Source of the DNA: a phage
Direction: 5' to 3' (one strand)
Sequence record: PZ379177.1
Length of the DNA stretch: 64,000 nt
In this document: in pieces, positions 41,864-57,505 of the stretch
How positions within the stretch are numbered: position 1 is the first letter of the stretch
Layout: each line of letters opens with the position of its first letter
Program-made: the position numbers and the translations under genes
Notes under the pieces: generated by a model
The model's input: the letters and a program-made list of their open reading frames with translations, nothing else
Database searches by the model: none
What the model was told of the DNA's origin: nothing

Positions 41864-42511
41864 TTATCCTGTGGCCTGCATATTGCGTACATACTTCTGC
41901 TCTAATGAATAGATGAAGTCGGCGACCGTCAATCCTTTGGTGTGCCACTCATACATTGTGTAGCCTGTATTCAGGAAATAGCCGCGCACTTTATCCATCG
42001 CTTCAGCTTCCTCCATGGAAGCCATCAGCGCGGCGACGTTATCATAAGAAGGCACAAATCCCTTCTTGCGTAGCGCATTGCGCAAATCTTTAGTTCTGAA
42101 TCCAATCTTGCACGGGTCATCACGGCCCGTTGATGATGCAACCTTCGGCAAAGCAAGGAACTCTTTGAGGAACATCGAGATGTTCAGGTCGCCTGCATCA
42201 TCAAGCTTCTGGAGTCGGTTGCGACCGCGCCCCTTGAATTCACTCGCACGGGGGTGAGCGCCAAAACAGTGCGCACCTTCCAATTTAGGGTCGATGATCA
42301 TCAAATCTTTTCCTACGCGCAATTCAACGTAGTAAAGGTATGTCTCATCGACAAGCTTCGTGCGTTTACAGGTGATGGAGTCCTTATCGTAACCAAAACC
42401 ACGCAACACGGTTGAAATCATCCGGTTCATTTCTTCTCCGTGAACGTCACTCTCTTTGTTCAGTTCACCGAGATGTTGAAAGAATTTAGCGATGTTGATT
42501 GCTTTATTCAT
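41864..42511 (-). CDS. Hypothetical early protein
   Basis: 215-aa ORF abutting the helicase gene. Confidence 0.5.
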   Translation of the reverse strand: MNKAINIAKFFQHLGELNKESDVHGEEMNRMISTVLRGFGYDKDSITCKRTKLVDETYLYYVELRVGKDLMIIDPKLEGAHCFGAHPRASEFKGRGRNRLQKLDDAGDLNISMFLKEFLALPKVASSTGRDDPCKIGFRTKDLRNALRKKGFVPSYDNVAALMASMEEAEAMDKVRGYFLNTGYTMYEWHTKGLTVADFIYSLEQKYVRNMQATG

Positions 42512-44181
42512 CAGAATTCATCCTTATCTCTTCCTAAAGAACGTTTGCGCTCAATAACCTTCTTCAAGAATTCAATATCTTCAGGGTCAGACTCGTCGCG
42601 AATAAGATACGCTAAGATAGTCATCAAGTCAGAAATGTATTCCCCTGCTTCATTCTTAATCAGCGGCGTAAAGTATCCACGCTGGTTGCGATAGGTCGCA
42701 GGCTCAAATCCAAGCTTCGACATGTGCGGCGCAAGGGTACGTGAGAAAGGCGACTTGCCGCACTTAGCTCTGAATCCCATAGCGATTGCACCACTGGTGA
42801 TGTGCCAGCGTCCGCTGTGATGTCGGTCATAAGGCGCGGTAATGACGACTTCAACAAGGTCGTTGTCGACCATCTCATCACGGATAACGCCGCGAGCACG
42901 TTCCATTTCATTCTTGCTAAACTCAGTAAGCATGCGAGATGTTTCACCAACAAACGCGTTGTAACCTGCTTCGCCGTGCTTCTCCATCCATGCAGCGCAC
43001 TCAGCCATCAATTGCCAAACGTCTTCTTTCAAAGTGGAAAGATCAGCTTGGAAGTCTTTCGACCAGTTCGGCTGCCCGTCCTTGTCAGCAAGTTGGCCAA
43101 CAAAGATAGGATATACACGACGGTTGCCCGTGTCATCACGCTGCATACCTGCGTATTCGTTGCCGTCCATGATAGCAATCCACTGGCGTGGTTTAACCTG
43201 CGTATCTTCAAATTTGAAGTCCAGGTCATCTTCCGTCTTAGTCAGGAATGCTTTCATGTTTTCGATGTCAGCCTTTTTAAAGCCTGTCATCTCGCCAACG
43301 TTCGCGATAATTGAGCGACCCGTAATAGCTCGCAAGAACGGGTTGAAGTTCTGCGCGGCCAAGTTCAACGGAATCGGTGTTGCGTGGCGGTCGTTCATAA
43401 TAGCTTCGCAAAGTAGCTTACTAAAATAACTCTTCCCTGCGTTCTGGCCGCCGATGAGCGCGATGGAGATTGGCGCTTGACATCCAGGGTTTGTCAGGCG
43501 GTTGTAGAGCGATAGCCAAAAATACACACCGATTTGTCGGTTTAACTCTGTATCGAACGGTCGGAATAGCTCGATAAGGTATTTTTCAATGCGCGCAGTA
43601 CCGTCCCATTCAGGAAGCTTCTTGTAGAAGAAGTCCATCAGGTCGTCGCGCTGATAACGCATGGCCCATTCCTTATAGGATTGAGCGACCTGACGTGAGT
43701 TTGGGTTGGACAGTCCTGCTGCGTCGACAGCGGCAACTATCTCTGTGACTTCCAAAGTACGGTCGGTGAATGTTTCGCCGCGATGGTCGACTAAGCGCCC
43801 ACGAAAAGTATCTTTGTGAGGGAATGGAACAACGCCACTTCCCTTATCAAACAACGCGTCGAAAACCGCATAACGGTTCATGTCACTCGTCCGGTCTGCC
43901 TGTAGAACGAAGTCATCTTTGGTAGGCTTGTAGTGAGGGAACTTGATTACCTGAAGTGAGGCGAGCAAGCGTGCTCTTTCAACCAAGTCTTCTTCACCGT
44001 AGCATTCCATGCGCTCTGCATCTTTCTCAACAGCCTTATGCTGGAGGCTGATTTTAGCTCTGGTGCCTTGCTGCTCTGCCGCTTGCATCTCTTCTGAAAC
44101 ACCAGCGTCTTGAATTTCGTCAAAGATTGCACCAAATTCATCACCTGTATCCTCTGGAAGATTGTCATGTTCAATTGACAT
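42511..44181 (-). CDS. VirE/D5-like P-loop DNA helicase (primase-associated)
   Basis: 556 aa; Walker A IALIGGQNAGKSYF; WDGTARIEKYLIELF region typical of phage VirE-family helicases. Confidence 0.7.
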   Translation of the reverse strand: MSIEHDNLPEDTGDEFGAIFDEIQDAGVSEEMQAAEQQGTRAKISLQHKAVEKDAERMECYGEEDLVERARLLASLQVIKFPHYKPTKDDFVLQADRTSDMNRYAVFDALFDKGSGVVPFPHKDTFRGRLVDHRGETFTDRTLEVTEIVAAVDAAGLSNPNSRQVAQSYKEWAMRYQRDDLMDFFYKKLPEWDGTARIEKYLIELFRPFDTELNRQIGVYFWLSLYNRLTNPGCQAPISIALIGGQNAGKSYFSKLLCEAIMNDRHATPIPLNLAAQNFNPFLRAITGRSIIANVGEMTGFKKADIENMKAFLTKTEDDLDFKFEDTQVKPRQWIAIMDGNEYAGMQRDDTGNRRVYPIFVGQLADKDGQPNWSKDFQADLSTLKEDVWQLMAECAAWMEKHGEAGYNAFVGETSRMLTEFSKNEMERARGVIRDEMVDNDLVEVVITAPYDRHHSGRWHITSGAIAMGFRAKCGKSPFSRTLAPHMSKLGFEPATYRNQRGYFTPLIKNEAGEYISDLMTILAYLIRDESDPEDIEFLKKVIERKRSLGRDKDEF

Positions 44182-44317
44182 TTAATCCTCCTGATACGGC
44201 TTTGTTATATTGTTGCATGGATATATCCTTTCAGGGTGCGGTAAATAAACGCCAGATTTCTGGCGTTGTATATTAATATAGTAAAACTCAATTTAAAGCA
44301 ATATAACTGGTGAACTA

Positions 44318-44608
44318 TCAGCAAGGAAATTGGTTGGCGTATGCCTTTCTCAATTTGTTTACTGATTGAACAGCATGAAGGTATTGGCAATCGGTGAAGA
44401 TGCGGCGCAAATGATCCATAGAAGACAGGTCATCGTTAGTAACCACCAGAATCTCTTCCGAAGGACAGCCAGCTTCTTTGACAATCTCATTGAGATTTGC
44501 GCCACTAATTTCTTCAACACGTTTCACCTCATCGATACCGTAAACATCAACGGCAACTTCGATGTCGTCATCGCTGATATTTTCACCATAAAGAATTACA
44601 ATATTCAT
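44318..44608 (-). CDS. Hypothetical early protein
   Basis: 96-aa acidic ORF. Confidence 0.45.
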   Translation of the reverse strand: MNIVILYGENISDDDIEVAVDVYGIDEVKRVEEISGANLNEIVKEAGCPSEEILVVTNDDLSSMDHLRRIFTDCQYLHAVQSVNKLRKAYANQFPC

Positions 44609-44727
44609 CCACTCACCCCTGCCAAATAATATGCCATATCCAATACATATAATAGCCCCAGGATGATGACAAGGGAAATGATTAATGTGTATTTCTTTAC
44701 GGCTTTCATAAGTATCTATACCTAAAT

Positions 44728-45072
44728 TTACTGTTGAGGATCACCAATGGAGTCTGTTGCATCCCATTCAACGCGTGCTGTGCGCTCTGCTGGTGGGCAA
44801 CCTTCGCCAGCGTAAAGCTCCACAACGCCTTCATGAGAGCAGCACTGGCACTCTACAAGGTCGCCATCTTCCCAGGCACCTTCCTCCGCGTTGCGATGCT
44901 GCCGCACCTTGATAACATCGCTTGCACAGTTAGGACAAGTCGAGAGATTGCTGGTAACGTTCCAGGTGAACTCGTTACGGAAAGCACCCATGCTACACCT
45001 CTTGATCTCTTTGCTGTTGAATCGCGGCTGAAGCTTCGTCAAAATTGACTGGCTCAACGGTGAACGTTGCAC
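44728..45072 (-). CDS. Hypothetical zinc-ribbon-like protein
   Basis: Contains CPNC...CQCCSH Cys clusters; start uncertain. Confidence 0.45.
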   Translation of the reverse strand: MQRSPLSQSILTKLQPRFNSKEIKRCSMGAFRNEFTWNVTSNLSTCPNCASDVIKVRQHRNAEEGAWEDGDLVECQCCSHEGVVELYAGEGCPPAERTARVEWDATDSIGDPQQ

Positions 45073-45283
45073 TGACCGTAAGGTTTTTAATAGTCAGCAG
45101 CGTATTGAATCGTTCGGCCTGAAGATTCATAGCGACATGCGTGGATACGTTAAGGATTGCCCCAACAACTTCCTCCACTGCGTAGCCTGCAAACAAAGGA
45201 AGAATCTGGTTGACAAGCTTAAGCTCGTTTTCAACACGAAGATTTTGTGCTTCTTCAACGGTCATCATTTTTGGTTCGTTCAT
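44993..45283 (-). CDS. Hypothetical early protein
   Basis: 96-aa ORF. Confidence 0.45.
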   Translation of the reverse strand: MNEPKMMTVEEAQNLRVENELKLVNQILPLFAGYAVEEVVGAILNVSTHVAMNLQAERFNTLLTIKNLTVSATFTVEPVNFDEASAAIQQQRDQEV

Positions 45284-45287
45284 TTTT

Positions 45288-45432
45288 ATTCCTTAACAAA
45301 TTCAGAGTAGTGTTGGGCCGCAGCCGCTTGATGGTGAGCCATGACTCCTTGAAGGGTCGGAAGCTCTGCTGGTTTAGGTTCTAACGACTTTAACAGACAT
45401 TCAACCTCGATGTTCAATTCTTCGCTTTGCAT
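45288..45432 (-). CDS. Small ORF (47 aa)
   Basis: ATG with AGAGGTGA RBS; product MQSEELNIEVECLLKSLEPKPAELPTLQGVMAHHQAAAAQHYSEFVKE. Below the track cutoff. Confidence 0.3.
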
Positions 45433-45490
45433 GAATCACCTCTGCTTCAGTTCATAAAATGATTATAGTTGCTATGAAAATAAAAGCAAA

Positions 45491-46573
45491 CTATTTTATG
45501 CCACCTGCACGACGATTTATCATGTCAAGTTGATTCTCAATATAAGGCATGACGATTGCTTCAACAAAAGCAGTCCAACCTTTCTTGCCTTCCCCTTTCC
45601 GGTGACAGTCGTGAGCGCAACCGAAAACGAATTCATGTTCAGCGCCAGGGATTGGGCCGCGAAAATAAGCGCCGTATGGGTCGCCGTTGGTGTGTTCTTC
45701 ACCCCAAGGACAGATGATGCGGCATTTGCCTGACATGTTTTCAACAACATCGCCATCGGACCCTTCACCCATCTTATTGCGAGCAAGGATTTGCTGGGCT
45801 ATTTTATACCAAACAGCATCATATTTGTATTCGTCAACGTCAATTTGAATTTCACGCTTTTGCGGCATAACGACGTGGAAACCGAAGGCTTGGCAAATCT
45901 CTTCGATTGTGTAGCGCAAAGAATAGTCTGCATGAACAAGTCGGCAGCGGAACGGGTCGCCGTTCTCATCGACATATTTATAGGGGCCGTCGTGAGTCAC
46001 ACGCTTGTTGTTGATGCACCCAGGAACACGGCCCACGCGCGTTACGTCTTTAATCGTGTTGTCGCCGCCCTTCTTGAGTACCATGTTAACGAAAGACCCA
46101 AGGAACGCTTTGAACTGAATAAGATGGTCAATCGGTTCTTTAAAGAAGTACCAAAGCTGGTGGTTGTTCGGTGAAGTCTCGACGATGACAGTCGGCTTCA
46201 GTCGCTCGAAAAAGAATTCCAAATCTAAATCGCCTTTGGACCCTTTACCGTGACCGATGTCGTCGACCATCATCGCCATACCGTGACCAAAGGCCGACTC
46301 TGTACGCCAGTATCGCATCTCACCCGTCTTTGGGTTGGGAGACTTACGCATCGAACTGATGCAAGCATAGCCGTTTTGGTGCTGCATGAGCGGCTTGCCC
46401 AACTTCCAAGGCTTAGGCCAGAAGCTGCTGTTGATCTTCTTGCCGCGTTCGTCGGTCTGTACCGTTGCTTCAGGAGCAAACACCGTCATGACGCGCTCAT
46501 CTTCTGGAATGCCTCTTTGGAGTTCTGTTAAAAACTCTTCGATTATTTTTGCTTCTTCTCTTAAACTAGCCAT
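45491..46573 (-). CDS. PrimPol-like (archaeo-eukaryotic-type) primase with C-terminal Cys/His cluster
   Basis: 360 aa; acidic MVDDIGHG, then ETSPNNHQLWYFF (SxxxxH motif), and C-terminal CPWGEEH...CAHDCH. Confidence 0.65.
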   Translation of the reverse strand: MASLREEAKIIEEFLTELQRGIPEDERVMTVFAPEATVQTDERGKKINSSFWPKPWKLGKPLMQHQNGYACISSMRKSPNPKTGEMRYWRTESAFGHGMAMMVDDIGHGKGSKGDLDLEFFFERLKPTVIVETSPNNHQLWYFFKEPIDHLIQFKAFLGSFVNMVLKKGGDNTIKDVTRVGRVPGCINNKRVTHDGPYKYVDENGDPFRCRLVHADYSLRYTIEEICQAFGFHVVMPQKREIQIDVDEYKYDAVWYKIAQQILARNKMGEGSDGDVVENMSGKCRIICPWGEEHTNGDPYGAYFRGPIPGAEHEFVFGCAHDCHRKGEGKKGWTAFVEAIVMPYIENQLDMINRRAGGIK

Positions 46574-46733
46574 CTTTCTTTCCTTCGGTGATCAATACCT
46601 GCAGTATAATATTGAGTGATACAAAGTCAACAATATTTACCATTTAGTTCACAATTTCGATTTACTTTGCTTTATACTATATCTGCAATTATACTATCAG
46701 AAAATATTTCCGCACTAACAAAGGTCGCCTGAA
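46574..46733. promoter_or_regulatory. Divergent AT-rich intergenic region
   Basis: Separates the leftward early operon from the rightward replication operon; contains TATAAT-like hexamers. No promoter mapped. Confidence 0.4.
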
Positions 46734-47060
46734 ATGAACGAAAAAGAGACGAAGCAACGCGAACGTGCAACACACGTCGGCATCGTTGAGTCCTTCCTTA
46801 ATACAAGATTGAATTCAAGCCTAACAATCATGCGATTCCTGGGTCAACCAGACAGAATCAAATTTATTTTTGCCGCAAATCCGGTATCGCTGTACATCCC
46901 TGTTGAATCCATGGCGTACTTAGTGCGCGACGAGAAAGGATGGAAGATACCAAACACAACTGTTTTCTTCAGCCATGTTGATGGTGAGATGTTTGAACGA
47001 AAAGAAGATTGCCATTTTATTCCAGTATATCTGGACCTTGACAGCGTAGTGGAGTTATAA
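46734..47060 (+). CDS. Hypothetical protein
   Basis: 108-aa ORF; its stop overlaps the helicase start. Confidence 0.5.
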   Translation: MNEKETKQRERATHVGIVESFLNTRLNSSLTIMRFLGQPDRIKFIFAANPVSLYIPVESMAYLVRDEKGWKIPNTTVFFSHVDGEMFERKEDCHFIPVYLDLDSVVEL

Positions 47061-48244
47061 TGAGCATTCCAGAATTTAATGATGAGCCAGTGATTCAGTT
47101 TAACGCGCAACAAATCGATGCCATCGAGAAGGCCGTTGCATGGTACAAGCGATTGCAGGACGGTAAAACTACGAAGCGCGTGTTTTTCATTGCTGGCTAT
47201 GCAGGGACTGGTAAAACCTCTATTGCTCGCGAGATTGTGCGCCGATGTGTCGGTGAGTACGGCGCTATCTATATTGCTCCGACCGGAAAGGCTGCAAGCC
47301 GATTAAAGCAAAAAGGCTGTCGTGGCGCTAAGACCCTTCACCAGTTCATCTATAACGTGCGCGGCGTTAACGATGACAATGAACCAATCTTCGCAAGAAA
47401 GTCAACGCTTGATGAAAGGCCGCACCTTGTCGTCCTTGATGAAGCTTCAATGGTCGGTGAGTGGGACACAGAGCGCCTTCTTGATCACCGCATCCCTGTC
47501 CTGGCATTAGGCGACATTGGACAAGTCCCTCCGGTAAAAGCCGCAGCCTACTTTACCGAAGAAGCCGTTGACGTACTGTTAACCGAAATCATGCGGCAGG
47601 GGAAAGAGTCAAACATAATCCGCGCCTCCTTCTTCGTGCGCCAAGGCAACCGACTTCCTCCGCGTGAATACGATGACGTCAAAGTATTGGCAGAATCGCC
47701 GCGCGTTACTGCGTTGAAGAAATTCATGGGCAAAGATGATCAAATTATTTGCTCCTATAACAGCACCAAAGATAAATGGAATTCATTATTACGGCAAGTG
47801 AGCGGACGTATAACGCCAATGCCAGGAATCGGTGAGAAGGTTATTTGCACCTTCAACCAACACGGGCCAGGATTCTGTAATGGCGAGCAAGGGATTGTTA
47901 TTAGCTATGAGCCAGTGCCGGACTTTGAAAGGGATGAAGATGAGTCGAATGAAATCATGTATGTTAATTTACGCTCATTGACTGATGGGAAAGATATAAA
48001 GGTAAAGATCAATCCTCTTTCCTTCTCTACTGATCAGGAAGTGCGCAAAGAGGCCCAACGCGCTGTTGGAGGCATGGACTATGGCTATGTCATCACGGTG
48101 CACAAATCGCAAGGCAGCGAGTGGGACAATGTGTGCGTGCTGGAAGAAATCTTGCACGGCGTTCCGTACTCCAAGATGATGTACACCGCTATCACCCGTG
48201 CTAAGAAGAATCTGACCGTGTACCGTGATTTGAAAGCGCGTTAA
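47060..48244 (+). CDS. Dda/RecD-like superfamily 1 DNA helicase
   Basis: 394 aa; Walker A GYAGTGKTS, Walker B VVLDEASMV, C-terminal VITVHKSQGSEWDNV. Confidence 0.85.
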   Translation: MSIPEFNDEPVIQFNAQQIDAIEKAVAWYKRLQDGKTTKRVFFIAGYAGTGKTSIAREIVRRCVGEYGAIYIAPTGKAASRLKQKGCRGAKTLHQFIYNVRGVNDDNEPIFARKSTLDERPHLVVLDEASMVGEWDTERLLDHRIPVLALGDIGQVPPVKAAAYFTEEAVDVLLTEIMRQGKESNIIRASFFVRQGNRLPPREYDDVKVLAESPRVTALKKFMGKDDQIICSYNSTKDKWNSLLRQVSGRITPMPGIGEKVICTFNQHGPGFCNGEQGIVISYEPVPDFERDEDESNEIMYVNLRSLTDGKDIKVKINPLSFSTDQEVRKEAQRAVGGMDYGYVITVHKSQGSEWDNVCVLEEILHGVPYSKMMYTAITRAKKNLTVYRDLKAR

Positions 48245-48397: not shown

Positions 48398-49243
48398 GTG
48401 AATATGGCCGAAGCAATCAAAGTATTATCTAAAGAAGAAAAACAAGCAGCCGCAGCAGAACGTCGTCGCGTGGCTGAAGAAAAACGCCTGGCTAAAAAGA
48501 AAGAAGCCGAAGAAAAACGCCAGAAGCGTGAGCAGGAAAAACAAGCCAAGCGTGAAGAAGCTGCGCTGAAACGCAAGCAAGCTGCTGATGAGAAGGCTCA
48601 GAAGCGTGCTGAAGAAGCAGCTAAGAAAGCTAAAGAGCGTGCAGAAAAGGCTGCCGCTAAGAAGGCAGAGCGTGAAGCCGCTAAAGCCGCTAAAGAAATT
48701 GAAAAGGCAAAGGCGAAAGAAGAAGCCAAGCGCCTGAAAGCTGAGCAGGCTGCGGCCAAGAAAGCTGAGCGTGATCAAGCCCGTGCTGCAGCGAAGGCCG
48801 AAAAAGAGAAGGCAAAAGAAGAAGCTAAAGCGAAACGCAAGGCAGAGCGTGAAGCTGCTAAGATTGCGGCGAAAGAAGCTGCAGAACAGCAGAAAGAACA
48901 GCGTAAGAAAGAAGCTGAAGAACGTCGCAAAGCCATCGCAGAACGTAAGGCTGCTAAAAAGGCAAACGGTCAGCGTCGTGCAAAAGCCACTCACTTCATC
49001 TACACTGGCAATGGCCTGAGCCAGCCGCAAGAGCATTCCACCCGTGGACGCGTTCTGGCGGCGATCAAAGAAGGCGAAGTTGGCGTGGCGCAGTCTATCG
49101 ATGAGCTGGGCGAAAAAGTTAAAGATCAACTGTTTGGCGCTTCCGTTCGCTCCTACCTGAGCAAGCTGGAAGAGATGGGCCACATCGAGTTTGTCGATGT
49201 TGAATCCAATGACGATGCCGAAGACGGTGATCAAGCGGAATAA
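48398..49243 (+). CDS. Lys/Ala/Glu-rich charged helical protein with globular C-terminal domain
   Basis: 281 aa; about 190 aa of KAE low-complexity (AEEKRQKREQEKQAKREEAALKRKQAADEKAQKRAEEAAKKAKERAEKAAAKK...) followed by a roughly 80-aa non-repetitive tail. Confidence 0.6.
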   Translation: MNMAEAIKVLSKEEKQAAAAERRRVAEEKRLAKKKEAEEKRQKREQEKQAKREEAALKRKQAADEKAQKRAEEAAKKAKERAEKAAAKKAEREAAKAAKEIEKAKAKEEAKRLKAEQAAAKKAERDQARAAAKAEKEKAKEEAKAKRKAEREAAKIAAKEAAEQQKEQRKKEAEERRKAIAERKAAKKANGQRRAKATHFIYTGNGLSQPQEHSTRGRVLAAIKEGEVGVAQSIDELGEKVKDQLFGASVRSYLSKLEEMGHIEFVDVESNDDAEDGDQAE

Positions 49244-50885: not shown

Positions 50886-50898
50886 TAGGATAATTAAA

Positions 50899-51672
50899 AT
50901 GAAAGTTGAATTAGTAAGATACACCCAAGATGCACTTGAACTTCTGCTGGAAACAAAGAACACGCGCATGACTGGCAAGCCTGTCTCTGAGATGACAGAG
51001 TCAGAGAAACAAGAGCACTGGCGATATATGCTTGACACCATCAAGTCACCTTTTGACTTTGTGGACTATATCTTTGACATCACCGACGTGTCTAAGAACA
51101 TGACCCATCAAATGGTGCGCACCCGCACAGGCGCATATCAAGAGCGCACCAGTCGCGCTCAGGAGTCGTCAGCGTTTGATGCGATTCGTCCGAAGGCTTT
51201 TGAACATCCTGAAGGGTCCACAAGCGTGCTTGGCGAAAAGTGGGATGATGCCATGGCGACTATTGACGCAATCTATCAAGAGTTGCGCGCGGCGGGTGCA
51301 GAAATCCAAGATGCGCGTGGCGTCCTGCCTTCGAATATGCAAACGCACATCATGGCCAAGTTCAACTTGCGCACGCTGCAACAAATGGCATCCAACCGCC
51401 TCTGCACGCGCACTCAAGGCGAGTACCAAAACGTATTTCGCGCAATGGTTGCTGAAGTTCTTAATGTGCACCCGTGGGCAAACCCTCTCTTACAGCCGCT
51501 GTGCATCGGTATGGGTAAGTGCGCATTCCCTCGTCACGGTAAGGCCCATTGCCCTTGGTATCGTGATTGGATGGATACCACTGCACAGCAAGAAGAATTA
51601 CGCATCCAGTTTTGGGATGCCGCGCCAATCACCAATAATCCAGTTGCCAAAGATGGAGTATCAAAAGGATGA
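50899..51672 (+). CDS. ThyX-like flavin-dependent thymidylate synthase homolog with variant motif
   Basis: 257 aa; THQMVRTRTGAYQERTS aligns with the ThyX signature RHR-x7/8-S, but His is replaced by Thr (RTR). Confidence 0.55.
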   Translation: MKVELVRYTQDALELLLETKNTRMTGKPVSEMTESEKQEHWRYMLDTIKSPFDFVDYIFDITDVSKNMTHQMVRTRTGAYQERTSRAQESSAFDAIRPKAFEHPEGSTSVLGEKWDDAMATIDAIYQELRAAGAEIQDARGVLPSNMQTHIMAKFNLRTLQQMASNRLCTRTQGEYQNVFRAMVAEVLNVHPWANPLLQPLCIGMGKCAFPRHGKAHCPWYRDWMDTTAQQEELRIQFWDAAPITNNPVAKDGVSKG

Positions 51673-52517
51673 AAACCTTAAACATTTTTGATTTAGACGG
51701 CACCATATTTAATGACGCTTGGCGTTTACAATACATCGATAAAGAAAACAAGAACTATGATGGCTATCACGAGCGATTGACTCATGATGATCACTTTCCT
51801 AATATAGCTTCGCAAGTAGGCTGGTCACTAAGTGAAGGCGCTGTTGAGTTCTGGACAGCGCGACCTAACAAGTGGCGTGCGACTACAACTAAGAAGTTGG
51901 AAGATACTTTCGGATGTATGCCTGGCGTAATCATACGCATGCGCGGCGATGATGATTTGCGTAGCGCGGCAGCATTGAAAGCAGATTACATGCGTCGACT
52001 CCCTTCAGGCTATGATCAGGTGTATGTGTACGACGACCGCGCAGACGTTTTGGATGCCATGATCATTGAAGCGCGTCCAAAGACTGGCGTCACGTTCCGA
52101 TTCTACCTTTGCACCAATGGTAGCTTCACGGAATACCACACACTTTTTAACCGCTCTAATAAAGCGAAAGTGCCTACTACGCAGGACACGCTGGGAGATT
52201 CGTTAGAAGCAACCAAGCCTGCCACCGCCGCCGATATTCTTGATGCGATGGCCGCGACCTTCCGTGAGCGCAACGCCGTTTATGGCGATAACGCTGTGAT
52301 GGTAGGTCAGGTTATGCAGGTGCTTTTCCCTAATGGCGTAACGTTGAAAACGCCGGAAGACTACCACATGTGGCATCTGTTCGAGCTTAAGATTGTCAAG
52401 CTTACACGCTTTGCAATCAGCGGCCTGAAGCACGAAGACTCTATACACGATGATGGTGTTTACAGCGCCATGTGTGAACGTCTTGTCAACACCCATAATA
52501 TTAATTTCAATAAATAG
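51669..52517 (+). CDS. HAD-superfamily phosphatase-like protein with C-terminal extension
   Basis: 282 aa; N-terminal motif I IFDLDGTIF (DxDGT); start overlaps the upstream stop. Confidence 0.55.
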   Translation: MKTLNIFDLDGTIFNDAWRLQYIDKENKNYDGYHERLTHDDHFPNIASQVGWSLSEGAVEFWTARPNKWRATTTKKLEDTFGCMPGVIIRMRGDDDLRSAAALKADYMRRLPSGYDQVYVYDDRADVLDAMIIEARPKTGVTFRFYLCTNGSFTEYHTLFNRSNKAKVPTTQDTLGDSLEATKPATAADILDAMAATFRERNAVYGDNAVMVGQVMQVLFPNGVTLKTPEDYHMWHLFELKIVKLTRFAISGLKHEDSIHDDGVYSAMCERLVNTHNINFNK

Positions 52518-52581
52518 TTTACTTGTGCGTTTCGATGAGTTATATTTATCTCATCGAAACGAAGTCCAAAAGGATAAATAA

Positions 52582-53265
52582 ATGAAAAAAGTAATTGTTG
52601 TAACTGGCTGCAATTCCGGTCTTGGTAAATCCATTTTTGACACCCTTGGTGCTTACGGTCATGAAGTTGTCGGTATTGATTTGGAGAACGGCTATGACAT
52701 CCGTAACGCGAAACAGATGAAAGAGCTTCTCTCTCAATACGACGTAGAAGGCTTGATCAACTGCGCTGGCGTCAACTCCAACAACTGGTTCGAAGATGTT
52801 AACTACGAAGAGTTCAATCGCGTTATGCACACCAACGCCTTCTCTTTCGTCAACACGACTCAGGCCGCGCTGAAAAGTCTTATTGACAACAAAGGTTTTG
52901 TGATCAACATCGTTTCCAACGCTGCGCATATTCCTATGACGTCCAGCTTGTGTTATAATGCATCCAAGGCTGCTGCGCTTATGATTAGCAAGCAGATGGC
53001 TCACGAGCTTACGCCTAAGTACGGAATCACGGTATTCTCTATTAGTCCTAACAAGCTACGTGGTACTGGCATGTCCAAACAGATTGAAGATGCTGTTTGC
53101 GCGACTCGCGGCTGGACTCCTGAGTATGCTGCTGAATACCAGAAAAAGGCGTTGATGAACGGATTGGAGACTGAGCCGCAAGTAATTGCTGACTTCATTC
53201 GCCATATCTTAATTACGGGCGCATGGCGCTTTATGTCTGGTACTGATATTCCATTTGGGAAATAA
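52582..53265 (+). CDS. Short-chain dehydrogenase/reductase (SDR)
   Basis: 227 aa; cofactor motif VIVVTGCNSGLGKSI (TGxxxGxG) and catalytic YNASKAA (YxxxK). Confidence 0.75.
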   Translation: MKKVIVVTGCNSGLGKSIFDTLGAYGHEVVGIDLENGYDIRNAKQMKELLSQYDVEGLINCAGVNSNNWFEDVNYEEFNRVMHTNAFSFVNTTQAALKSLIDNKGFVINIVSNAAHIPMTSSLCYNASKAAALMISKQMAHELTPKYGITVFSISPNKLRGTGMSKQIEDAVCATRGWTPEYAAEYQKKALMNGLETEPQVIADFIRHILITGAWRFMSGTDIPFGK

Positions 53266-53268
53266 ATC

Positions 53269-53439
53269 ATGACTATCAAAGTTGTTGTAGAAGTGATTGG
53301 CGACGTAGCAGAAGTGAAGATTGATCAAGAAGGTGTTGGATTTGAAGTAATAAGAATCGAAAACGCAAAGATTAACCACGAGCGCGTCGGTGCCATTGAG
53401 ACTTATTCCATCGAAGGCAACACAGTAATTAATCAATAA
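53269..53439 (+). CDS. Small ORF (56 aa)
   Basis: ATG immediately after the SDR stop; product MTIKVVVEVIGDVAEVKIDQEGVGFEVIRIENAKINHERVGAIETYSIEGNTVINQ. Confidence 0.3.
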   Translation: MTIKVVVEVIGDVAEVKIDQEGVGFEVIRIENAKINHERVGAIETYSIEGNTVINQ

Positions 53440-53459
53440 TATTTAATTAAGGAAACAAA

Positions 53460-54011
53460 ATGCCACATTTTAAAATTGAACAAATCGCCCTGTCAATTCC
53501 AGGTGCTCAGCGCGCACAGAATTTCCTGGCTAAAATCGGCCTGACAGAATGGTTCCATGATCACGTTGTTGCTACTGGTCGCGTATTTGAAGCTGATGTC
53601 TTTAAGGGTCAGCGCGGCGATTGCACCAACGAAGCTGACTTGCGCTTCAACTATCAGGCTGGCAACGGCACCGATGGCGGCGCTGGTAAGCCTCTTGAGC
53701 TTGAAATTCTTGACTATACAAAAGGTTGCAACTGGATTCACGAAAACATCGAATACATCGATGCGCACGACAATCAGGTTAGCCATCTTGGTATGCACGT
53801 GACTGCCGCTGAACTTGCTGAATGGCGCAAGTTCTTTAAAGAAGAAGGCATTCAGGTTGCGCAGGAAGTCGTAACCGACTCTCACACCAACCCAAATATT
53901 GCTGGTCAGCGTCGTTACAACTATGTGATCTTTGATACGCGTGAGATCATCGGCGTTGATTTGAAGTTTATCGTGCGCTTGAATCAAGACGGTACTCCGT
54001 ACACTGTATAA
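53460..54011 (+). CDS. Hypothetical enzyme, possibly glyoxalase/VOC-like fold
   Basis: 183 aa; His/Glu-containing beta-alpha segments (LELEILDY, SHLGMHV). Assignment weak. Confidence 0.4.
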   Translation: MPHFKIEQIALSIPGAQRAQNFLAKIGLTEWFHDHVVATGRVFEADVFKGQRGDCTNEADLRFNYQAGNGTDGGAGKPLELEILDYTKGCNWIHENIEYIDAHDNQVSHLGMHVTAAELAEWRKFFKEEGIQVAQEVVTDSHTNPNIAGQRRYNYVIFDTREIIGVDLKFIVRLNQDGTPYTV

Positions 54012-54027: not shown

Positions 54028-54052
54028 GGCCGTCCTAATGGGCGGCCTTTTT
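54028..54052 (+). terminator. Putative rho-independent terminator
   Basis: Hairpin GGCCGTCC-TAAT-GGGCGGCC followed by TTTTT. Confidence 0.55.
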
Positions 54053-54065: not shown

Positions 54066-54608
54066 GTGTTATTTCTCCCTTATGACTTCGAAACAACCGG
54101 ATTGACCGTGCACCCGAAAGCGCCGCTTGGGATGCAGCCGCGCCCTATTGAATTTGCAGGTCTGTTGACAGACGGCAAAGAGATTATTGAAACGTTTGAA
54201 TTCATAATTAATCCTGAAATCGTGATTGAAGAAATTATCACAAAGATTACCGGATTAACAAATGAAGACCTTGAGTGCAATCCACCATTCATCAATTTTG
54301 TCCCGCAGCTAAAAGAAATCTTCAAGAAGACGGCTGCCACTATCGCGCACAACCATGCGTTCGATAAAAACATTCTTGATTATGCACTACAGCGCGAAGG
54401 ACTTACGCTTGATGATGTTAATTTTCCAGAAATAAACATTTGTACAGTTGAGCAAACCTTGCCTATTTTTGGCCGAAGAGTTAAGCTTCAAGAGCTGTAT
54501 GAATTATATTTCGGAAAATATGAACAGAAACACCGTGCATTAGACGACGTAATATTACTGCACAAAGTCTGCCAACAAATTGGCGTATATGACATCTGGA
54601 GTAAATAA
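54066..54608 (+). CDS. DnaQ-like 3'-5' exonuclease (DEDDh family)
   Basis: 180 aa; Exo I motif FLPYDFETTGL, Exo II-like HNHAFDKNIL, Exo III HRALDDVILL. GTG start with AGGAGG RBS; stop overlaps the DnaE start. Confidence 0.75.
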   Translation: MLFLPYDFETTGLTVHPKAPLGMQPRPIEFAGLLTDGKEIIETFEFIINPEIVIEEIITKITGLTNEDLECNPPFINFVPQLKEIFKKTAATIAHNHAFDKNILDYALQREGLTLDDVNFPEINICTVEQTLPIFGRRVKLQELYELYFGKYEQKHRALDDVILLHKVCQQIGVYDIWSK

Positions 54609-57505
54609 TGTTTCCACAATTGAGAGTTCGCAGCGGTTACACGTTCAAAGAAGTTTATGGACGGCATCCTGAAATTATAGCACGGCTCAAAGAGTTGGGC
54701 TGCGAAGTCGCGGCATTAGTTGATAACAACACATGGGGTCACGTTCGCTGGGAAAAGGAATGCCAGAAAAATGATATTAAGCCTATGTTTGGAATGGAGA
54801 TTCCAATCATCGACCCTGATGCGGACCCGAAAAAGGGATTCAAACCGAAGGCTTGGATATTGGCCCTTGACTTAAAATCTTTTTACAACGCTACAACACT
54901 TGCAACGCAGCGTGGTGGTCTTACCCGTGCAGAGTTCGGGGCGCTTGATGGCGTCGTTAAATTCTGTGGCGGTGCCGTGGAACTGCTGCGGCCAGAGGAC
55001 TACGACTATATAGACGTCAACCCATCGTCGTTCCTTTTGGCAAAGCGCCAGGCGTTGGCTCATCGTAGCAGTGGAAGGCCGCTGGTTTTAACCGGATACA
55101 ATCACATGCCTTCTCCTGAGCACGTTGACTTCGCTTATGCGTGGGAAGTGCGCGACACGGTTAAGCCGCATTGCATCGTTGACGTTGAAGACTTGCGCAA
55201 ACAGCTTAAAGGCATCTTGACTGAAGATGAGCTTGATCAGGCAACGGCCAATGCCGTGGACATCGCGAACGGCATAGTCGGACTTGACTTGAAATTGCGT
55301 AAGGCACCGATTATTCACCTTGCTGGTGACATGGTAAAGCTTGCTCGCGAGGGGATGGAGTACCGTCTAAAAGCAGGTCACATCAAAGAATGGACTCAGG
55401 AATATGAGGACCGCTTCAACGAAGAAATTCACCAGATTCAGCTGAAAGATTTCGACTCATACTTTCTGGTGGTAGCGGACCTTGTACGATTCGCAAAAAC
55501 AAAAATGCTAGTCGGTCCTGCGCGCGGCTCATCGGCTGGTTCACTTGTTTGCTATTGCCTCGGCATCACGGAAGTGGACCCAATACCGTATAAACTGCTT
55601 TTTGCCCGATTCATCGACGTAAGCCGCGCCGACCTTCCTGACATCGACATCGACTTTGAAGATACCAAACGCTATATGGTGTTTGATTATCTTAAAGAGA
55701 AATACGGCGAAATGAACGTTGCAAAGCTTGGCAACATTAACACGCTTAAGGCCAACTCAGTAATGGCGCAGGTTGGTAAGAAGTTCAACATTGGATACCA
55801 CGAAACGGCCAACATTAAAAACGCACTGCTTGAATACTCATCCGGTGACGCCCGTTATGGCCACGGCCTGGAGGATACCTTTGCCACAACAACCACGGGT
55901 CAAGAGTTTGTGGCCAAATATCCTGATGCCGCGCGTTGCATGGGCGACCTTGAGATTCACCCGTCTCACACAGGTGTTCACGCAGCGGGAATCATTGTGT
56001 GTAATGACCCAATCTCTGATTATTGTACTGTAACTGCAGAAGGGATTGCACAAATTGATAAGCCTGACAGCGAATACCTTAACCTTTTGAAGCTTGATGC
56101 GCTGGGCCTTCGTACTCTCGGCATTATTTCTGATACAGGCGTTATTGATGCTGAAACGCTCTACGGCATCAAGCTTGATGATCAAAGCGTCCTTGACATT
56201 CTTAACGAAAACAAGATGTCAGGCATCTTCCAGTTTGAAGGCGACGCTGTACGCTCAGTAACAAACTTTGTGCACGTCGATAACTTTAACAAAATCGACA
56301 ACCTGACGGCTTTGGGTCGACCTGGCCCGTTGTCATCCGGTATGGCCCAGAAATACATTGAACGCGCAGCAGGGCGTGCGCCGATTGAATACGACGTGCC
56401 GCAGCTTGAGCCGTACTTAAAAGAGACTTACGGCGTGTTCCTTTACCAAGAGCAAATCATGGCCGTGGTTAAAGAGATTGGTTCATTTGACTGGGCGAAA
56501 ACATCCGCTGTGCGTAAGGCAATGTCAGGCCGTAAGGGTGAGGAATACTTTAACAAGCTTGGCGAAGACTTTGTTGCAGGCGCAATAAATAACGGCGTAC
56601 CGGAAGCGGATGCAAGAAAGCTTTGGCAGGCGATGGCTACGTTCGGGTCATGGGGCTTTAACAAGTCGCACTCCGTGTCATACGCGGTCGTGACCTACTG
56701 GACCTTGTGGCTTAAACGACACTACCCGTTGGAATTTGCCGCTGCTTGCTTACGCGCTGCTAAGGACGAAGACCAGACGATTGCGATATTACGTGAACTT
56801 GCGAAGGAAGGCGTGGATTATGTGCCAATCGACCCTGATCACTCTTCAATGAACTGGACCATCGCTAACGGAAAGCTAATCGGCGGCATCATGAACGCGA
56901 AAGGGTACGGAATGGTGAAGGCGATGAAGTATATCGAAGCACGTGAAGCCGGAACCTTAACGCAAAAGCAAAAGGACGCATTGGCCAATGCTGAAGTAAA
57001 ATACGGCGACCTTACAGAGATGCACACAAAGTTCGGCTGGGCGTATAATGACCCGTATCTGATTGGTGTGACGTCCGGCGCTTCAATACGCCAGATGAAG
57101 GAAGTCGGTGATGACGAGCGCGCAATAGTAATCGGCAAGTTGACAAAGAAAGTGCTTGCGGACGAGAACGAAGCAACACGCATCCGTAAACGACTTGAGC
57201 GCGGCATCTATACAAAGCACGGCAAGCTTAAAAAGGGTCTTCAAGTTGATGGCCGCTACGCAGAGTTTGACCAGTACGGGAACAAGCTTGAGACTCAGTT
57301 CATCGACCTTATGTGCAAAGACGACTCGACCGACTCGCCAATGCGCTTCAGGATTCGCCCAGAGAAGTTCCAGAAGTACGGGAAGTACATTGCTGAAAAC
57401 GTCGGGAACGGCGCATTCTTCCTGATGAAAGGTCGCAAGCTTGAAGGCATTGACATGTTCATCGTTGACGTGATCAAACAGGTGTATCCAGATGGCAACA
57501 AATAA
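54608..57505 (+). CDS. DNA polymerase III alpha-type (DnaE-like) replicative polymerase
   Basis: 965 aa; DnaE-like segments GPARGSSAGSLVCYCLGITEVDP and FNKSHSVSYAVVTYWTLWLKRHYPLEFAAACL. Confidence 0.85.
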   Translation: MFPQLRVRSGYTFKEVYGRHPEIIARLKELGCEVAALVDNNTWGHVRWEKECQKNDIKPMFGMEIPIIDPDADPKKGFKPKAWILALDLKSFYNATTLATQRGGLTRAEFGALDGVVKFCGGAVELLRPEDYDYIDVNPSSFLLAKRQALAHRSSGRPLVLTGYNHMPSPEHVDFAYAWEVRDTVKPHCIVDVEDLRKQLKGILTEDELDQATANAVDIANGIVGLDLKLRKAPIIHLAGDMVKLAREGMEYRLKAGHIKEWTQEYEDRFNEEIHQIQLKDFDSYFLVVADLVRFAKTKMLVGPARGSSAGSLVCYCLGITEVDPIPYKLLFARFIDVSRADLPDIDIDFEDTKRYMVFDYLKEKYGEMNVAKLGNINTLKANSVMAQVGKKFNIGYHETANIKNALLEYSSGDARYGHGLEDTFATTTTGQEFVAKYPDAARCMGDLEIHPSHTGVHAAGIIVCNDPISDYCTVTAEGIAQIDKPDSEYLNLLKLDALGLRTLGIISDTGVIDAETLYGIKLDDQSVLDILNENKMSGIFQFEGDAVRSVTNFVHVDNFNKIDNLTALGRPGPLSSGMAQKYIERAAGRAPIEYDVPQLEPYLKETYGVFLYQEQIMAVVKEIGSFDWAKTSAVRKAMSGRKGEEYFNKLGEDFVAGAINNGVPEADARKLWQAMATFGSWGFNKSHSVSYAVVTYWTLWLKRHYPLEFAAACLRAAKDEDQTIAILRELAKEGVDYVPIDPDHSSMNWTIANGKLIGGIMNAKGYGMVKAMKYIEAREAGTLTQKQKDALANAEVKYGDLTEMHTKFGWAYNDPYLIGVTSGASIRQMKEVGDDERAIVIGKLTKKVLADENEATRIRKRLERGIYTKHGKLKKGLQVDGRYAEFDQYGNKLETQFIDLMCKDDSTDSPMRFRIRPEKFQKYGKYIAENVGNGAFFLMKGRKLEGIDMFIVDVIKQVYPDGNK

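What the first reader, a model, noticed from the sequence alone, without database searches (positions are those of the whole stretch)
42511..57505. Replication set combines a DnaE-type polymerase, separate DnaQ exonuclease, PrimPol-like primase and VirE-like helicase
The replisome genes are a DnaE-like alpha subunit with a separately encoded, translationally coupled DnaQ-like proofreader, a PrimPol-like primase (45491-46573) and a VirE/D5-like helicase (42511-44181) on the opposite strand, plus a Dda-like helicase. No family A or B polymerase is present in the window. This cellular-type polymerase with a split primase-helicase is a less common phage combination and may help place the phage taxonomically.
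Basis: partly seen in the sequence, partly recalled or inferred. Interest (0 to 1): 0.4.

Follow-up and report, generated by a model that had tools for sequence, protein, structure and literature searches.

The report
Known PB1-type phage replication gene set
The genes are real and correctly read, but they are the standard, already annotated DNA-replication module of Wifcevirus and other PB1-like phages (family Lindbergviridae), so the finding is ordinary.

Summary
54608-57505(+) is a family C (DnaE-type) polymerase. 54066-54608(+) is a DEDDh (DnaQ-like) exonuclease whose stop overlaps the dnaE start (TAATG). 45491-46573(-) is an archaeo-eukaryotic-type primase, specifically of the RepB' family, not the Pfam Prim-Pol family. 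42511-44181(-) is a VapE/VirE-family SF3 helicase, and 47060-48244(+) is a Dda/RecD-like SF1B helicase. I found no family A or B polymerase, sliding clamp, clamp loader or SSB in the window.

The region is 95-96% identical in DNA to Wifcevirus phages (Bas98/99, WFC, FEC19). Those records already carry the same annotations. The whole module is syntenic in Pbunavirus, and its dnaQ-dnaE core in Myosmarvirus, Carpasinavirus and Burkholderia phage Maja. PB1-like phages were described as having "DNA polymerase III", helicase, primase, ligase and ThyX by 2010.

The combination is uncommon among phages (947 family C polymerases in 18,382 genomes in one survey) but it is a hallmark of Lindbergviridae. 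What I add is detail: a degenerate PHP domain, no tau-binding domain, no canonical clamp-binding motif, a DnaQ without the epsilon tail, and a zinc finger on the primase.

Verdict: already known, low interest.

The parts
42511..44181 (-). VapE/VirE-family SF3 (AAA+-type) helicase, 556 aa. Walker A GGQNAGKS lies at aa 244-251. No primase domain is fused to it.
   Evidence: Pfam VapE-like_dom 1.6e-28, aa 189-407. phrog_4630 4e-255 and phrog_256 'DNA helicase' 8e-36. Motif positions. 100% identical to the phage Mansfield protein and 44-47% to Pbunavirus and Serratia phage orthologs.
45491..46573 (-). RepB'-family archaeo-eukaryotic primase, 360 aa, with a C-terminal Cys/His zinc-finger-like motif. 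Key residues: VDD 103-105, ETSPNNHQ 132-139, C288/H294/C319/H321.
   Evidence: Pfam RepB_primase 1.6e-36. A profile of five orthologs has RSF1010 RepB' (3H20/3H25) as its best PDB match, aligning VDD and ETSPxNxQ, but weakly (E about 0.1). The motif II Gln is typical of the RepB' family (PMC5862659).
46574..46733 (.). AT-rich divergent intergenic region between the leftward primase/helicase genes and the rightward replication genes.
   Evidence: Sequence read. One sigma-70-like site on the minus strand at 46630-46603. No repeats found there. The function as a promoter region is inferred.
47060..48244 (+). Dda/RecD-like SF1B helicase, 394 aa. Motifs: GYAGTGKT 46-53, DEASM 127-131, TVHKSQG 346-352.
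   Evidence: Pfam AAA_30 1.7e-22 and UvrD_C_2 4.3e-13. phrog_325 'Dda-like helicase' 2.7e-98. NCBIfam RecD2 1.8e-34, below its cutoff. Motifs.
50899..51672 (+). ThyX flavin-dependent thymidylate synthase (nucleotide supply).
   Evidence: Pfam Thy1 3.5e-30; phrog_85.
54028..54047 (+). Terminator-like GC-rich hairpin with a T-run just upstream of dnaQ. It marks the start of the dnaQ-dnaE-nuclease-SNF2 block.
   Evidence: Terminators are annotated at the equivalent place in phages XcP1 and Maja.
54066..54608 (+). DnaQ-like DEDDh 3'-5' exonuclease, 180 aa. D7, E9, D100, H156 and D161 are present. It has no epsilon-type C-terminal tail.
   Evidence: Pfam RNase_T 2.6e-22. phrog_192 'DNA polymerase exonuclease subunit' 3.4e-37. 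PDB PolC exonuclease domain 2p1j 1.6e-6. Alignment with E. coli epsilon.
54608..57505 (+). Family C (DnaE-type) DNA polymerase, 965 aa. The start overlaps the dnaQ stop (TAATG).
   Evidence: Pfam. PDB Pol III alpha 1e-84 over aa 240-798. NCBIfam TIGR00594 scores 475 bits, above its cutoff of 434. Catalytic D345/D347 (PDIDIDF) and D497 are conserved.
57492..57914 (+). 140-aa protein overlapping the dnaE end by 14 nt and the SNF2 start by 4 nt. It is a probable PD-(D/E)xK nuclease (RecU/Hjc/VRR-NUC-like), not a polymerase accessory.
   Evidence: Invariant E29, P37-D38 and E52-x-K54. Conserved downstream of dnaE in four other genera. The AF2 model is only moderate (pLDDT 66.6). Foldseek top hits are RecU/PrfA and Hjc resolvases and the SPARDA nuclease, E about 1e-3.
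57911..59434 (+). SNF2-family helicase/translocase, 507 aa.
   Evidence: Pfam SNF2-rel_dom 8.6e-22 and Helicase_C 5.8e-11; phrog_62 2e-106.
61819..62412 (+). MazG-like nucleotide pyrophosphohydrolase.
   Evidence: phrog_1992 6e-63.
62409..63386 (+). ATP-dependent DNA ligase (Okazaki-fragment sealing).
   Evidence: phrog_114 5e-42. Weak Pfam ligase OB and adenylation hits. Annotated as ligase in Bas98.

Best explanation
This is the conserved replication module of a Wifcevirus (family Lindbergviridae, PB1-like myoviruses). What is shown is family membership and conservation of catalytic residues. The mechanism below is inferred. The VapE/VirE-type SF3 helicase unwinds the fork. The separately encoded RepB'-type archaeo-eukaryotic primase makes primers. 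The DnaE-type family C polymerase extends them, while the DEDDh exonuclease made from the overlapping upstream gene proofreads; the polymerase's own PHP domain has lost the usual His ligands. The Dda/RecD-like SF1B helicase and the SNF2 helicase with its PD-(D/E)xK nuclease probably handle roadblock removal, fork remodelling and recombination-dependent replication. The ATP-dependent ligase seals nicks, and ThyX and MazG condition the dNTP pool. No clamp, clamp loader or SSB is encoded. Processivity must therefore come from host factors, from coupling to the phage helicase, or from the polymerase itself.
For: Profile hits for every component come from three libraries and from PDB sequences. Catalytic residues are conserved: polymerase D345/D347/D497, exonuclease D7/E9/D100/H156/D161, primase VDD and ETSPxNxQ, and the helicase Walker motifs. 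The dnaQ stop/dnaE start overlap is conserved in five genera. The whole module is syntenic in Pbunavirus Nello. The region is 95-96% identical in DNA to Wifcevirus genomes that carry the same annotations. This DnaE is the only polymerase in the window and in the complete Bas98 genome annotation. In the literature, family C polymerases occur in phages, AEP primases typically pair with SF3 helicases, and the VirE family is a putative replicative helicase (PMC4889955). PB1-like phages were described as encoding a complete replication machinery (PMC3008698).
Against: I found no biochemical study of any Lindbergviridae replication protein, so all the roles are homology-based. DnaE falls below every NCBIfam DnaE equivalog cutoff, and DnaQ falls below all epsilon cutoffs. 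DnaQ lacks the epsilon C-terminal segment that binds alpha in E. coli, so a DnaE-DnaQ complex is inferred only from gene overlap. DnaE lacks the tau-binding domain, and neither protein has a Qxx[LIMV]x[FLY] clamp-binding motif, so how processivity is achieved is unknown. Which of the three helicases is the replicative one is not established.
Confidence: 0.85

Rival explanations
1. The DnaE homolog is a repair or translesion polymerase of the DnaE2/ImuC kind, and the phage genome is replicated by host Pol III.
For: A few public records label orthologs 'dnaE2: error-prone DNA polymerase'. The protein is short, lacks the tau-binding domain and misses all the DnaE equivalog cutoffs.
Against: It scores much better against the DnaE1 model PRK05673 (496 bits) than against the error-prone model PRK05672 (331 bits). 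It is translationally linked to a proofreading exonuclease, which error-prone DnaE2 enzymes are not known to have (my own knowledge). It sits in a module with its own primase, helicases and ligase, and it is conserved across the family.
Confidence: 0.05
2. The RepB'-like protein is not a general lagging-strand primase. Like RSF1010 RepB', it would be a site-specific initiator primase that primes only at dedicated single-strand initiation hairpins, so the phage would replicate mainly by leading-strand or strand-displacement synthesis.
For: The Pfam family and the best PDB match are RSF1010 RepB'. [quoted passage not shown] The phage also encodes a strand-displacement-friendly set of SF1B and SNF2 helicases and a resolvase-like nuclease.
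Against: The phage protein carries a zinc-finger-like CHCH motif where RepB' has its C-terminal PriCT-1 domain. It is always encoded upstream of an SF3 helicase, and directly adjacent to it in phage Carpasina; that is the typical primase-helicase primosome pairing (PMC4889955). The phage also encodes a ligase, which implies discontinuous synthesis. I found no hairpin or repeat candidates in 44100-47100.
Confidence: 0.15
3. The 556-aa VapE-family protein is itself a primase, as many GenBank records and PHROGs label it ('DNA primase'), so the phage would have two primases and no SF3 helicase.
For: phrog_4630 and several other matching PHROGs are named 'DNA primase'. Bas98, FEC19 and others annotate 'DNA primase (x2)'.
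Against: The only recognisable domain is the P-loop VapE/DUF5906 NTPase, aa 189-407, with Walker A GGQNAGKS. In the longer 'primase' PHROGs it matches only the C-terminal helicase part, for example positions 465-804 of 823. No DnaG, Toprim or AEP domain was detected in aa 1-188. Kazlauskas et al. classify the VirE family as SF3 helicases that are often fused to primases, which explains the inherited label.
Confidence: 0.05

Closest known systems
Replication module of Wifcevirus phages (for example HermannAdler_Bas98 PQ850608, vB_EcoM_WFC NC_048195, FEC19 NC_048073)
   Same: 95-96% nucleotide identity over 95-96% of 42511-57505, with the same genes in the same order. These records already annotate DNA polymerase (III alpha), DNA polymerase exonuclease subunit, two 'DNA primases', Dda-like helicase, ThyX, PNK-like protein and FabG-like protein.
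   Different: Only allelic differences. The early region (25001-50000) is 93-95% identical over 69-84% coverage to the listed best genomes, so the window is a distinct isolate or lineage and not an exact database copy.
Pbunavirus (PB1-like) replication module, for example Pseudomonas phage Nello gp59c-gp82 and JG024 ORF50-77
   Same: The full synteny is shared: VapE helicase and RepB'-type primase on one strand; Dda-like helicase, K/E/A-rich protein, flavoprotein, ThyX, PNK-like protein, 3'-5' exonuclease overlapping DnaE, small nuclease-like protein, SNF2, MazG and ligase on the other. It was described as a complete replication machinery in 2010.
   Different: Protein identities are 58-61% for DnaE, 55% for DnaQ, about 64% for the primase and about 44% for the helicase. 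Pbunavirus DnaE has an insertion of about 70 aa after the HhH region. The intervening small genes differ.
E. coli Pol III core (alpha DnaE plus epsilon DnaQ)
   Same: The same polymerase fold family and catalytic aspartates, a non-catalytic-looking PHP domain combined with a separate DEDDh proofreader, and HhH and OB-like regions after the fingers.
   Different: About 30% identity. The phage alpha has 965 aa against 1160, lacks the tau-binding C-terminal domain and the QADMF/QVELEF clamp motifs, and its PHP lacks the His residues that E. coli keeps (Q4/R6/R8). The phage exonuclease lacks the C-terminal part of epsilon (about the last 50-60 aa, aligned to gaps) that carries the clamp- and alpha-binding elements. 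No theta, beta or clamp loader is encoded.
RSF1010 RepB' primase (PDB 3H20) and the RepB' AEP family
   Same: A Pfam PF16793 match, the acidic VDD motif, and ETSPxNxQ with Gln in place of the motif II His.
   Different: The C-terminal domain is a conserved Cys/His zinc-finger-like motif, not PriCT-1. It is partnered with an SF3 VapE helicase, whereas RSF1010 uses its own RepA helicase (my own knowledge). It is phage-borne and not plasmid-borne.
Fused primase-helicases of the D5/P4-alpha/VirE type
   Same: AEP primase followed by an SF3 helicase in the same orientation, the typical co-occurrence. The two genes are separated by only 12 bp in phage Carpasina.
   Different: Here they are two separate genes, with about 1.3 kb of small ORFs between them.

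Membership tests
Family C DNA polymerase (Pol III alpha / DnaE type) | Polymerase core (palm/NTPase) and fingers domains score above the curated thresholds. | tested here: met
   PF07733 214 bits (cutoff 23.9), PF17657 129.5 bits (cutoff 22). TIGR00594 superfamily 475 bits, above 434.
Family C DNA polymerase (Pol III alpha / DnaE type) | Three catalytic aspartates (E. coli D401, D403, D555). | tested here: met
   D345 and D347 in PDIDIDF and D497 in KLDALG. All three are invariant in six aligned sequences that include E. coli.
Family C DNA polymerase (Pol III alpha / DnaE type) | N-terminal PHP domain. | tested here: inconclusive
   PF02811 scores 26.6 bits against a cutoff of 26.4, over aa 5-91 only. 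The positions aligned to E. coli H8, R10 and H12 are Q4, R6 and R8. The domain is therefore present but degenerate.
Bacterial replicative DnaE1 (equivalog of E. coli alpha) | Full-length equivalog score and the tau-binding C-terminal domain. | tested here: not met
   Best equivalog PRK05673 scores 496 bits against a cutoff of 1002. The alignment ends at the OB-like region and nothing corresponds to the E. coli C-terminal domain.
Bacterial replicative DnaE1 (equivalog of E. coli alpha) | Canonical beta-clamp-binding motif (QL[SD]LF or Qxx[LIMV]x[FL]). | tested here: not met
   A regex search finds none in DnaE or DnaQ. The position aligned to E. coli QADMF reads NAEVKY (aa 794-799), conserved across genera as [NKE][AS][EV][VI]x[YF].
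DnaQ / epsilon-type DEDDh proofreading exonuclease | Exo I, II and III-epsilon motifs (D, E, D, H, D). | tested here: met
   D7, E9, D100, H156 and D161 align with E. coli epsilon. PF00929 80.5 bits (cutoff 24).
DnaQ / epsilon-type DEDDh proofreading exonuclease | C-terminal alpha-binding segment, and epsilon equivalog score. | tested here: not met
   The protein ends at aa 180, and the C-terminal part of epsilon (about the last 50-60 aa, aligned to gaps) has no counterpart. dnaQ_proteo scores 44 bits against a cutoff of 223.
DnaQ / epsilon-type DEDDh proofreading exonuclease | Physical and functional association with the polymerase. | not testable with these tools
   Only indirect evidence: the stop/start overlap is conserved in five genera.
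RepB' family of archaeo-eukaryotic primases (PrimPol-PV1 supergroup) | Match to the RepB primase catalytic domain, with motif I acidic residues and motif II Gln. | tested here: met
   PF16793 126 bits (cutoff 24.3). VDD 103-105 and Q139 are invariant. They align with RepB' VDD and ETSPKNYQ. The family trait is described in PMC5862659.
RepB' family of archaeo-eukaryotic primases (PrimPol-PV1 supergroup) | C-terminal PriCT-1 domain, as in the prototype. | tested here: not met
   No Pfam hit beyond aa 237. A conserved C288/H294/C319/H321 motif is there instead.
Pfam Prim-Pol (bifunctional primase-polymerase) family | Match to the Prim-Pol domain model. | tested here: not met
   RepB_primase is the only Pfam family reported at E <= 0.01.
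VapE/VirE family of SF3 helicases | VapE P-loop NTPase domain with a Walker A motif. | tested here: met
   PF05272 100 bits (cutoff 25). GGQNAGKS at aa 244-251.
VapE/VirE family of SF3 helicases | ATP-dependent DNA unwinding. | not testable with these tools
   According to PMC4889955 no member of the VirE group has been characterised.
Dda/RecD-like SF1B helicases | SF1 motifs I, II and VI, and an AAA_30 plus UvrD_C_2 architecture. | tested here: met
   It is below the RecD2 equivalog cutoff (119 against 500 bits).
Genus Wifcevirus, family Lindbergviridae | High nucleotide identity and synteny with classified members. | tested here: met
   95-96% identity over 95-96% of the region to WFC, WFH, FEC19 and Bas98-101. 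Taxonomy from PMC12451628.

The most novel reading that the evidence does not exclude
Lindbergviridae may run a minimal, self-contained family C replisome: a DnaE without a tau-binding domain, an epsilon-tail-less DnaQ, a RepB'-type primase and a VapE helicase. It would work without the canonical bacterial clamp and clamp-loader interactions, either with no clamp at all or through the conserved non-canonical [NKE][AS][EV][VI]x[YF] motif that sits where E. coli alpha has QADMF. If so, it would be a simple model for how a bacterial-type polymerase achieves processivity without tau and beta, and it might bear on the very short latent period reported for Wifcevirus.
Probability: 0.25. Interest if true: 0.45.

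Novelty: already known. Interest (0 to 1): 0.12.

Why it matters
It matters little as a discovery. The module is annotated in several hundred Lindbergviridae genomes and was noted in PB1-like phages by 2010. Its practical value is taxonomic. The RepB'-type primase and the DnaE C-terminal region are near-exclusive markers of Lindbergviridae among 50,697 phage records, so they place the window firmly in that family, genus Wifcevirus. One open question remains and is testable: how does a clamp-less, tau-less DnaE/DnaQ pair replicate 68 kb quickly? I found no biochemical work on any of these proteins.

Tried and rejected
1. Hidden clamp, clamp loader or SSB. Pfam and PHROG scans of 30 further ORFs across the window gave none.
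2. The 331-aa unknown protein as a possible beta-clamp. I rejected this: the AF2 model (pLDDT 86.7) has a UDP-galactopyranose mutase / amine oxidase FAD fold.
3. The 140-aa protein coupled to dnaE as a possible polymerase accessory. I rejected this in favour of a PD-(D/E)xK nuclease partner of SNF2, based on motifs plus Foldseek on a moderate model. The word-indexed homolog search found only 6 relatives, so the model is shallow.
4. PDB sequence searches for the 331-, 215- and 183-aa unknowns found nothing meaningful.
5. A canonical clamp-binding motif regex found none in DnaE or DnaQ.
6. Origin-like repeats or hairpins in 44100-47100: only short chance-level matches. Promoter and terminator scans were not above the shuffled expectation overall (24 against 20.1, 23 against 17.4); only the hairpin at 54028-54047 is convincing.
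7. PrimPol family membership of the primase is not supported by Pfam; the match is RepB' instead.
8. I did not use the third homolog search, the representative-library search or the metagenome and genome scans, because the answer was already clear.


Full report
**Observation.** The ORF table shows all the genes at exactly the coordinates given:
- 42511-44181(-), 556 aa
- 45491-46573(-), 360 aa
- 47060-48244(+), 394 aa
- 54066-54608(+), 180 aa
- 54608-57505(+), 965 aa

Pfam assigns them as follows:
- The 965-aa protein matches DNA_pol3_alpha (3.1e-63), the Pol III alpha fingers domain (1e-37) and, marginally, PHP (8.5e-6).
- The 180-aa protein matches RNase_T/DEDDh exonuclease (2.6e-22).
- The 360-aa protein matches RepB_primase (1.6e-36).
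- The 556-aa protein matches the VapE-like domain (1.6e-28).
- The 394-aa protein matches AAA_30/UvrD_C_2, an SF1 helicase architecture.

PHROGs, NCBIfam and PDB sequence searches agree. The dnaQ stop and the dnaE start overlap as TAATG at 54606-54610, with GGAG 7 nt upstream.

**No other polymerase or accessory factor.** The only ORFs of at least 500 aa in the window are these:
- a portal fused to a pyrophosphatase domain
- an SLT tail lysin
- the sheath
- a tail fibre
- VapE, DnaE and SNF2

Pfam and PHROG scans of 30 further ORFs found no family A or B polymerase, sliding clamp, clamp loader or SSB. The complete annotation of the close relative Bas98 (115 CDS) lists none either. The roughly 4 kb of genome outside the window corresponds there to tail and endolysin genes.

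**What it is.** The 15-kb region is 95-96% identical in DNA, over 95-96% of its length, to Wifcevirus phages: HermannAdler_Bas98, ManiWeber_Bas99, vB_EcoM_WFC/WFH, vB_Eco4M-7 and FEC19. Their records already carry 'DNA polymerase III alpha subunit', 'DNA polymerase exonuclease subunit', 'DNA primase' (twice), 'Dda-like/RecD-like helicase', ThyX and so on. The variable early region is 93-95% identical over 69-84% coverage to the listed best genomes, so the window is a separate isolate of the genus.

ICTV placed Wifcevirus with Pbunavirus, Myosmarvirus, Carpasinavirus, Bcepfunavirus and others in the new family Lindbergviridae, the PB1-like phages (PMC12451628).

The whole module is syntenic in Pbunavirus Nello. 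VapE helicase and primase lie on one strand. On the other lie Dda-like helicase, a K/E/A-rich protein, a flavoprotein, ThyX, a PNK-like protein, a 3'-5' exonuclease overlapping DnaE, a small protein, SNF2, MazG and ligase.

The dnaQ/dnaE overlap is kept in every other phage sampled:
- Nello: 1 nt
- Serratia phage WR01: 1 nt
- Xanthomonas phage XcP1: 4 nt
- Burkholderia phage Maja: 4 nt

They support translational coupling as a conserved feature; coupling itself is inferred.

The PB1-like phage JG024 was described in 2010 as having 'a complete DNA replication machinery'. [quoted passage not shown]

**How common is the combination?** By tblastn against 50,697 phage records:
- DnaE homologs occur in 1377 records, mainly Pseudomonas, Mycobacterium, Streptomyces, Gordonia and Bacillus phages.
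- The RepB'-type primase occurs in only 365 records, almost all Lindbergviridae (Pseudomonas 294, Escherichia 27, Serratia 9, Burkholderia 6, Xanthomonas 6, Pantoea 3).
- The C-terminal 206 aa of this DnaE occur in about as many records (360) with almost the same organism breakdown.
- VapE-type helicases occur in 860 records from many phage groups.

Published surveys agree:
- One found 6560 PolA, 2857 PolB and 947 family C polymerases in 18,382 Caudoviricetes, with family C 'the rarest' (PMC11348598).
- Family C polymerases are 'rare and present only in bacteriophages' among viruses (PMC4889955).
- AEP primases typically co-occur with SF3 helicases (PMC4889955).
- The VirE family is a putative replicative helicase that is often fused to a primase (PMC4889955).
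- Bacterial-type and archaeo-eukaryotic-type parts are 'typically intermixed' in phage genomes (PMC4889955).

The set is a family hallmark and not a novelty.

**Details of the polymerase.** It aligns to E. coli and Thermus alpha over aa 240-798 (E about 1e-84). The catalytic aspartates are conserved: D345 and D347 in PDIDIDF, and D497 in KLDALG.

It passes the TIGR00594 superfamily cutoff but no DnaE equivalog cutoff. It scores better against the DnaE1 model than the error-prone DnaE2 model, 496 against 331 bits.

The PHP domain is short and degenerate. The residues aligned to E. coli H8, R10 and H12 are Q4, R6 and R8 in all five phage genera. That fits a polymerase relying on a separate proofreader.

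After the HhH region there is an OB-like segment. The tau-binding C-terminal domain is absent.

No Qxx[LIMV]x[FLY] motif exists in DnaE or DnaQ. The residues aligned with the E. coli internal clamp motif QADMF are NAEVKY (aa 794-799). Across genera they are conserved as [NKE][AS][EV][VI]x[YF] followed by [AG]DL. Whether this binds a clamp is speculation.

**Details of the exonuclease.** All five DEDDh residues are present: D7, E9, D100, H156 and D161. The C-terminal part of E. coli epsilon (about the last 50-60 aa, aligned to gaps), which carries the clamp- and alpha-binding elements, is missing. If the two phage proteins form a complex, the interface must differ from the E. coli one.

**Details of the primase.** The Pfam match is RepB_primase and not Prim-Pol. 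A profile of five orthologs has RSF1010 RepB' (3H20/3H25) as its best PDB match. The match is weak (E about 0.1) but aligns VDD and ETSPxNxQ.

Kazlauskas et al. 2018 describe the RepB' family as part of the PrimPol-PV1 supergroup of AEPs, with Gln replacing the motif II His and a C-terminal PriCT-1 domain in the prototype (PMC5862659). The phage protein has that Gln (Q139). In place of PriCT-1 it has an invariant C288/H294/C319/H321 zinc-finger-like motif.

The primase gene always lies upstream of the helicase gene on the same strand. The two are 12 bp apart in phage Carpasina and 1.3 kb apart here. This looks like a split version of the common fused primase-helicase.

**Details of the helicases and neighbours.**
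- VapE has Walker A GGQNAGKS at aa 244-251 and no detectable primase domain. The widespread 'DNA primase' label is inherited from fused relatives, since it matches only their C-terminal helicase part.
- The Dda-like protein has SF1 motifs I, II and VI.
- Downstream of dnaE, a 140-aa ORF overlaps dnaE by 14 nt and SNF2 by 4 nt, and it is conserved in every genus sampled. It has invariant E29, P37-D38 and E52-x-K54. A moderate AF2 model (pLDDT 66.6) matches RecU/PrfA and Hjc resolvases and other PD-(D/E)xK nucleases at E about 1e-3. I read it as the nuclease partner of the SNF2 helicase and not as a polymerase accessory. That reading is tentative.
- A terminator-like hairpin at 54028-54047 precedes dnaQ, and terminators are annotated at the same place in XcP1 and Maja. 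So dnaQ-dnaE-nuclease-SNF2 looks like one conserved block.

**Mechanism (inferred).**
1. The SF3 VapE helicase and the RepB'-type primase act as a two-protein primosome.
2. DnaE with DnaQ acts as the polymerase-proofreader core.
3. The Dda-like and SNF2/nuclease proteins handle roadblocks, fork remodelling or recombination-dependent replication.
4. The ligase seals nicks.
5. ThyX and MazG support dNTP supply.

Primer removal, SSB and any clamp would have to come from the host or from unrecognised proteins. I found no biochemical study of any of these proteins.

**Rivals considered.**
- A DnaE2-like repair polymerase is unlikely. The protein is closer to the DnaE1 model, it has a proofreader partner, and it is the only polymerase in the genome.
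- A RepB'-like, site-specific, leading-strand-only initiator is possible but disfavoured by the helicase pairing, the ligase and the lack of hairpin candidates.
- VapE as a second primase is unlikely on domain evidence.

**Verdict.** The novelty rating is 'already known'. Interest is low. The residual open point is how a clamp-less, tau-less family C polymerase achieves processivity in a phage reported to have a very short latent period (PMC11990801).

Noticed in passing
window 49378-50373 (+), with neighbours 50899-54011: A 331-aa protein has no Pfam, NCBIfam or PDB sequence hit, but it has 1952 homologs in the metagenome protein database; among the 120 best listed, many lie on 60-73 kb contigs. 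It models confidently (pLDDT 86.7) as a compact two-domain FAD enzyme of the UDP-galactopyranose mutase / amine oxidase / renalase type. It sits in the replication module next to ThyX, a HAD/PNKP-like phosphatase, an SDR and a 183-aa protein (53460-54011) whose ortholog is annotated as glyoxalase/bleomycin-resistance-like. [quoted passage not shown] An untested idea is that this enzyme cluster modifies nucleotides or DNA.
   Followed up: partly
window 57492-57914 (+): A 140-aa ORF overlaps both dnaE and the SNF2 helicase gene and is conserved in five Lindbergviridae genera. It has an invariant E...PD...ExK signature and weak structural matches to RecU/Hjc-type resolvases. It is annotated 'DNA helicase' or hypothetical in public records, which is probably a mislabel.
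   Followed up: partly
window 20291-22699 (-): The portal protein (Phage_portal_3, 3.5e-88) carries a C-terminal InPase inorganic-pyrophosphatase-like domain (PF18823, 3.1e-46). Bas98 annotates the likely counterpart (by position in its gene order) only as 'minor head protein'.
   Followed up: no
window 48398-49243 (+): A 281-aa protein has about 190 aa of Lys/Glu/Ala-rich low-complexity sequence, which causes the local AT-skew peak. A conserved C-terminal domain of about 100 aa and an acidic tail follow. Relatives annotate it variously as 'TolA protein' or 'ATP-dependent DNA helicase'. The C-terminal domain is conserved in Serratia and Burkholderia phages. Its function is unknown; it could be a DNA-binding or SSB-like accessory.
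   Followed up: partly
window 50439-50885 (+): A 148-aa ORF with an N-terminal signal-peptide-like sequence sits inside the replication module. It has no Pfam or PHROG hit, and tblastn found nothing in the partial loci I held from five other Lindbergviridae phages; only the Nello locus covers the equivalent part of the module. It may be a genus-specific moron.
   Followed up: partly
window 34952-35521 (-): The N-terminal 45 aa of a 189-aa early protein give a weak PHROG match (1.8e-4) to a Lar-like restriction alleviation protein. This may be relevant to the reported RM resistance.
   Followed up: no
window 44181-45491 (-): About 1.3 kb holding six annotated small genes in Bas98 separates the primase and helicase genes here. 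In Xanthomonas phage Carpasina the two genes are only 12 bp apart (L012 4480-7313). That suggests insertion of small accessory genes into an ancestral primase-helicase pair.
   Followed up: partly
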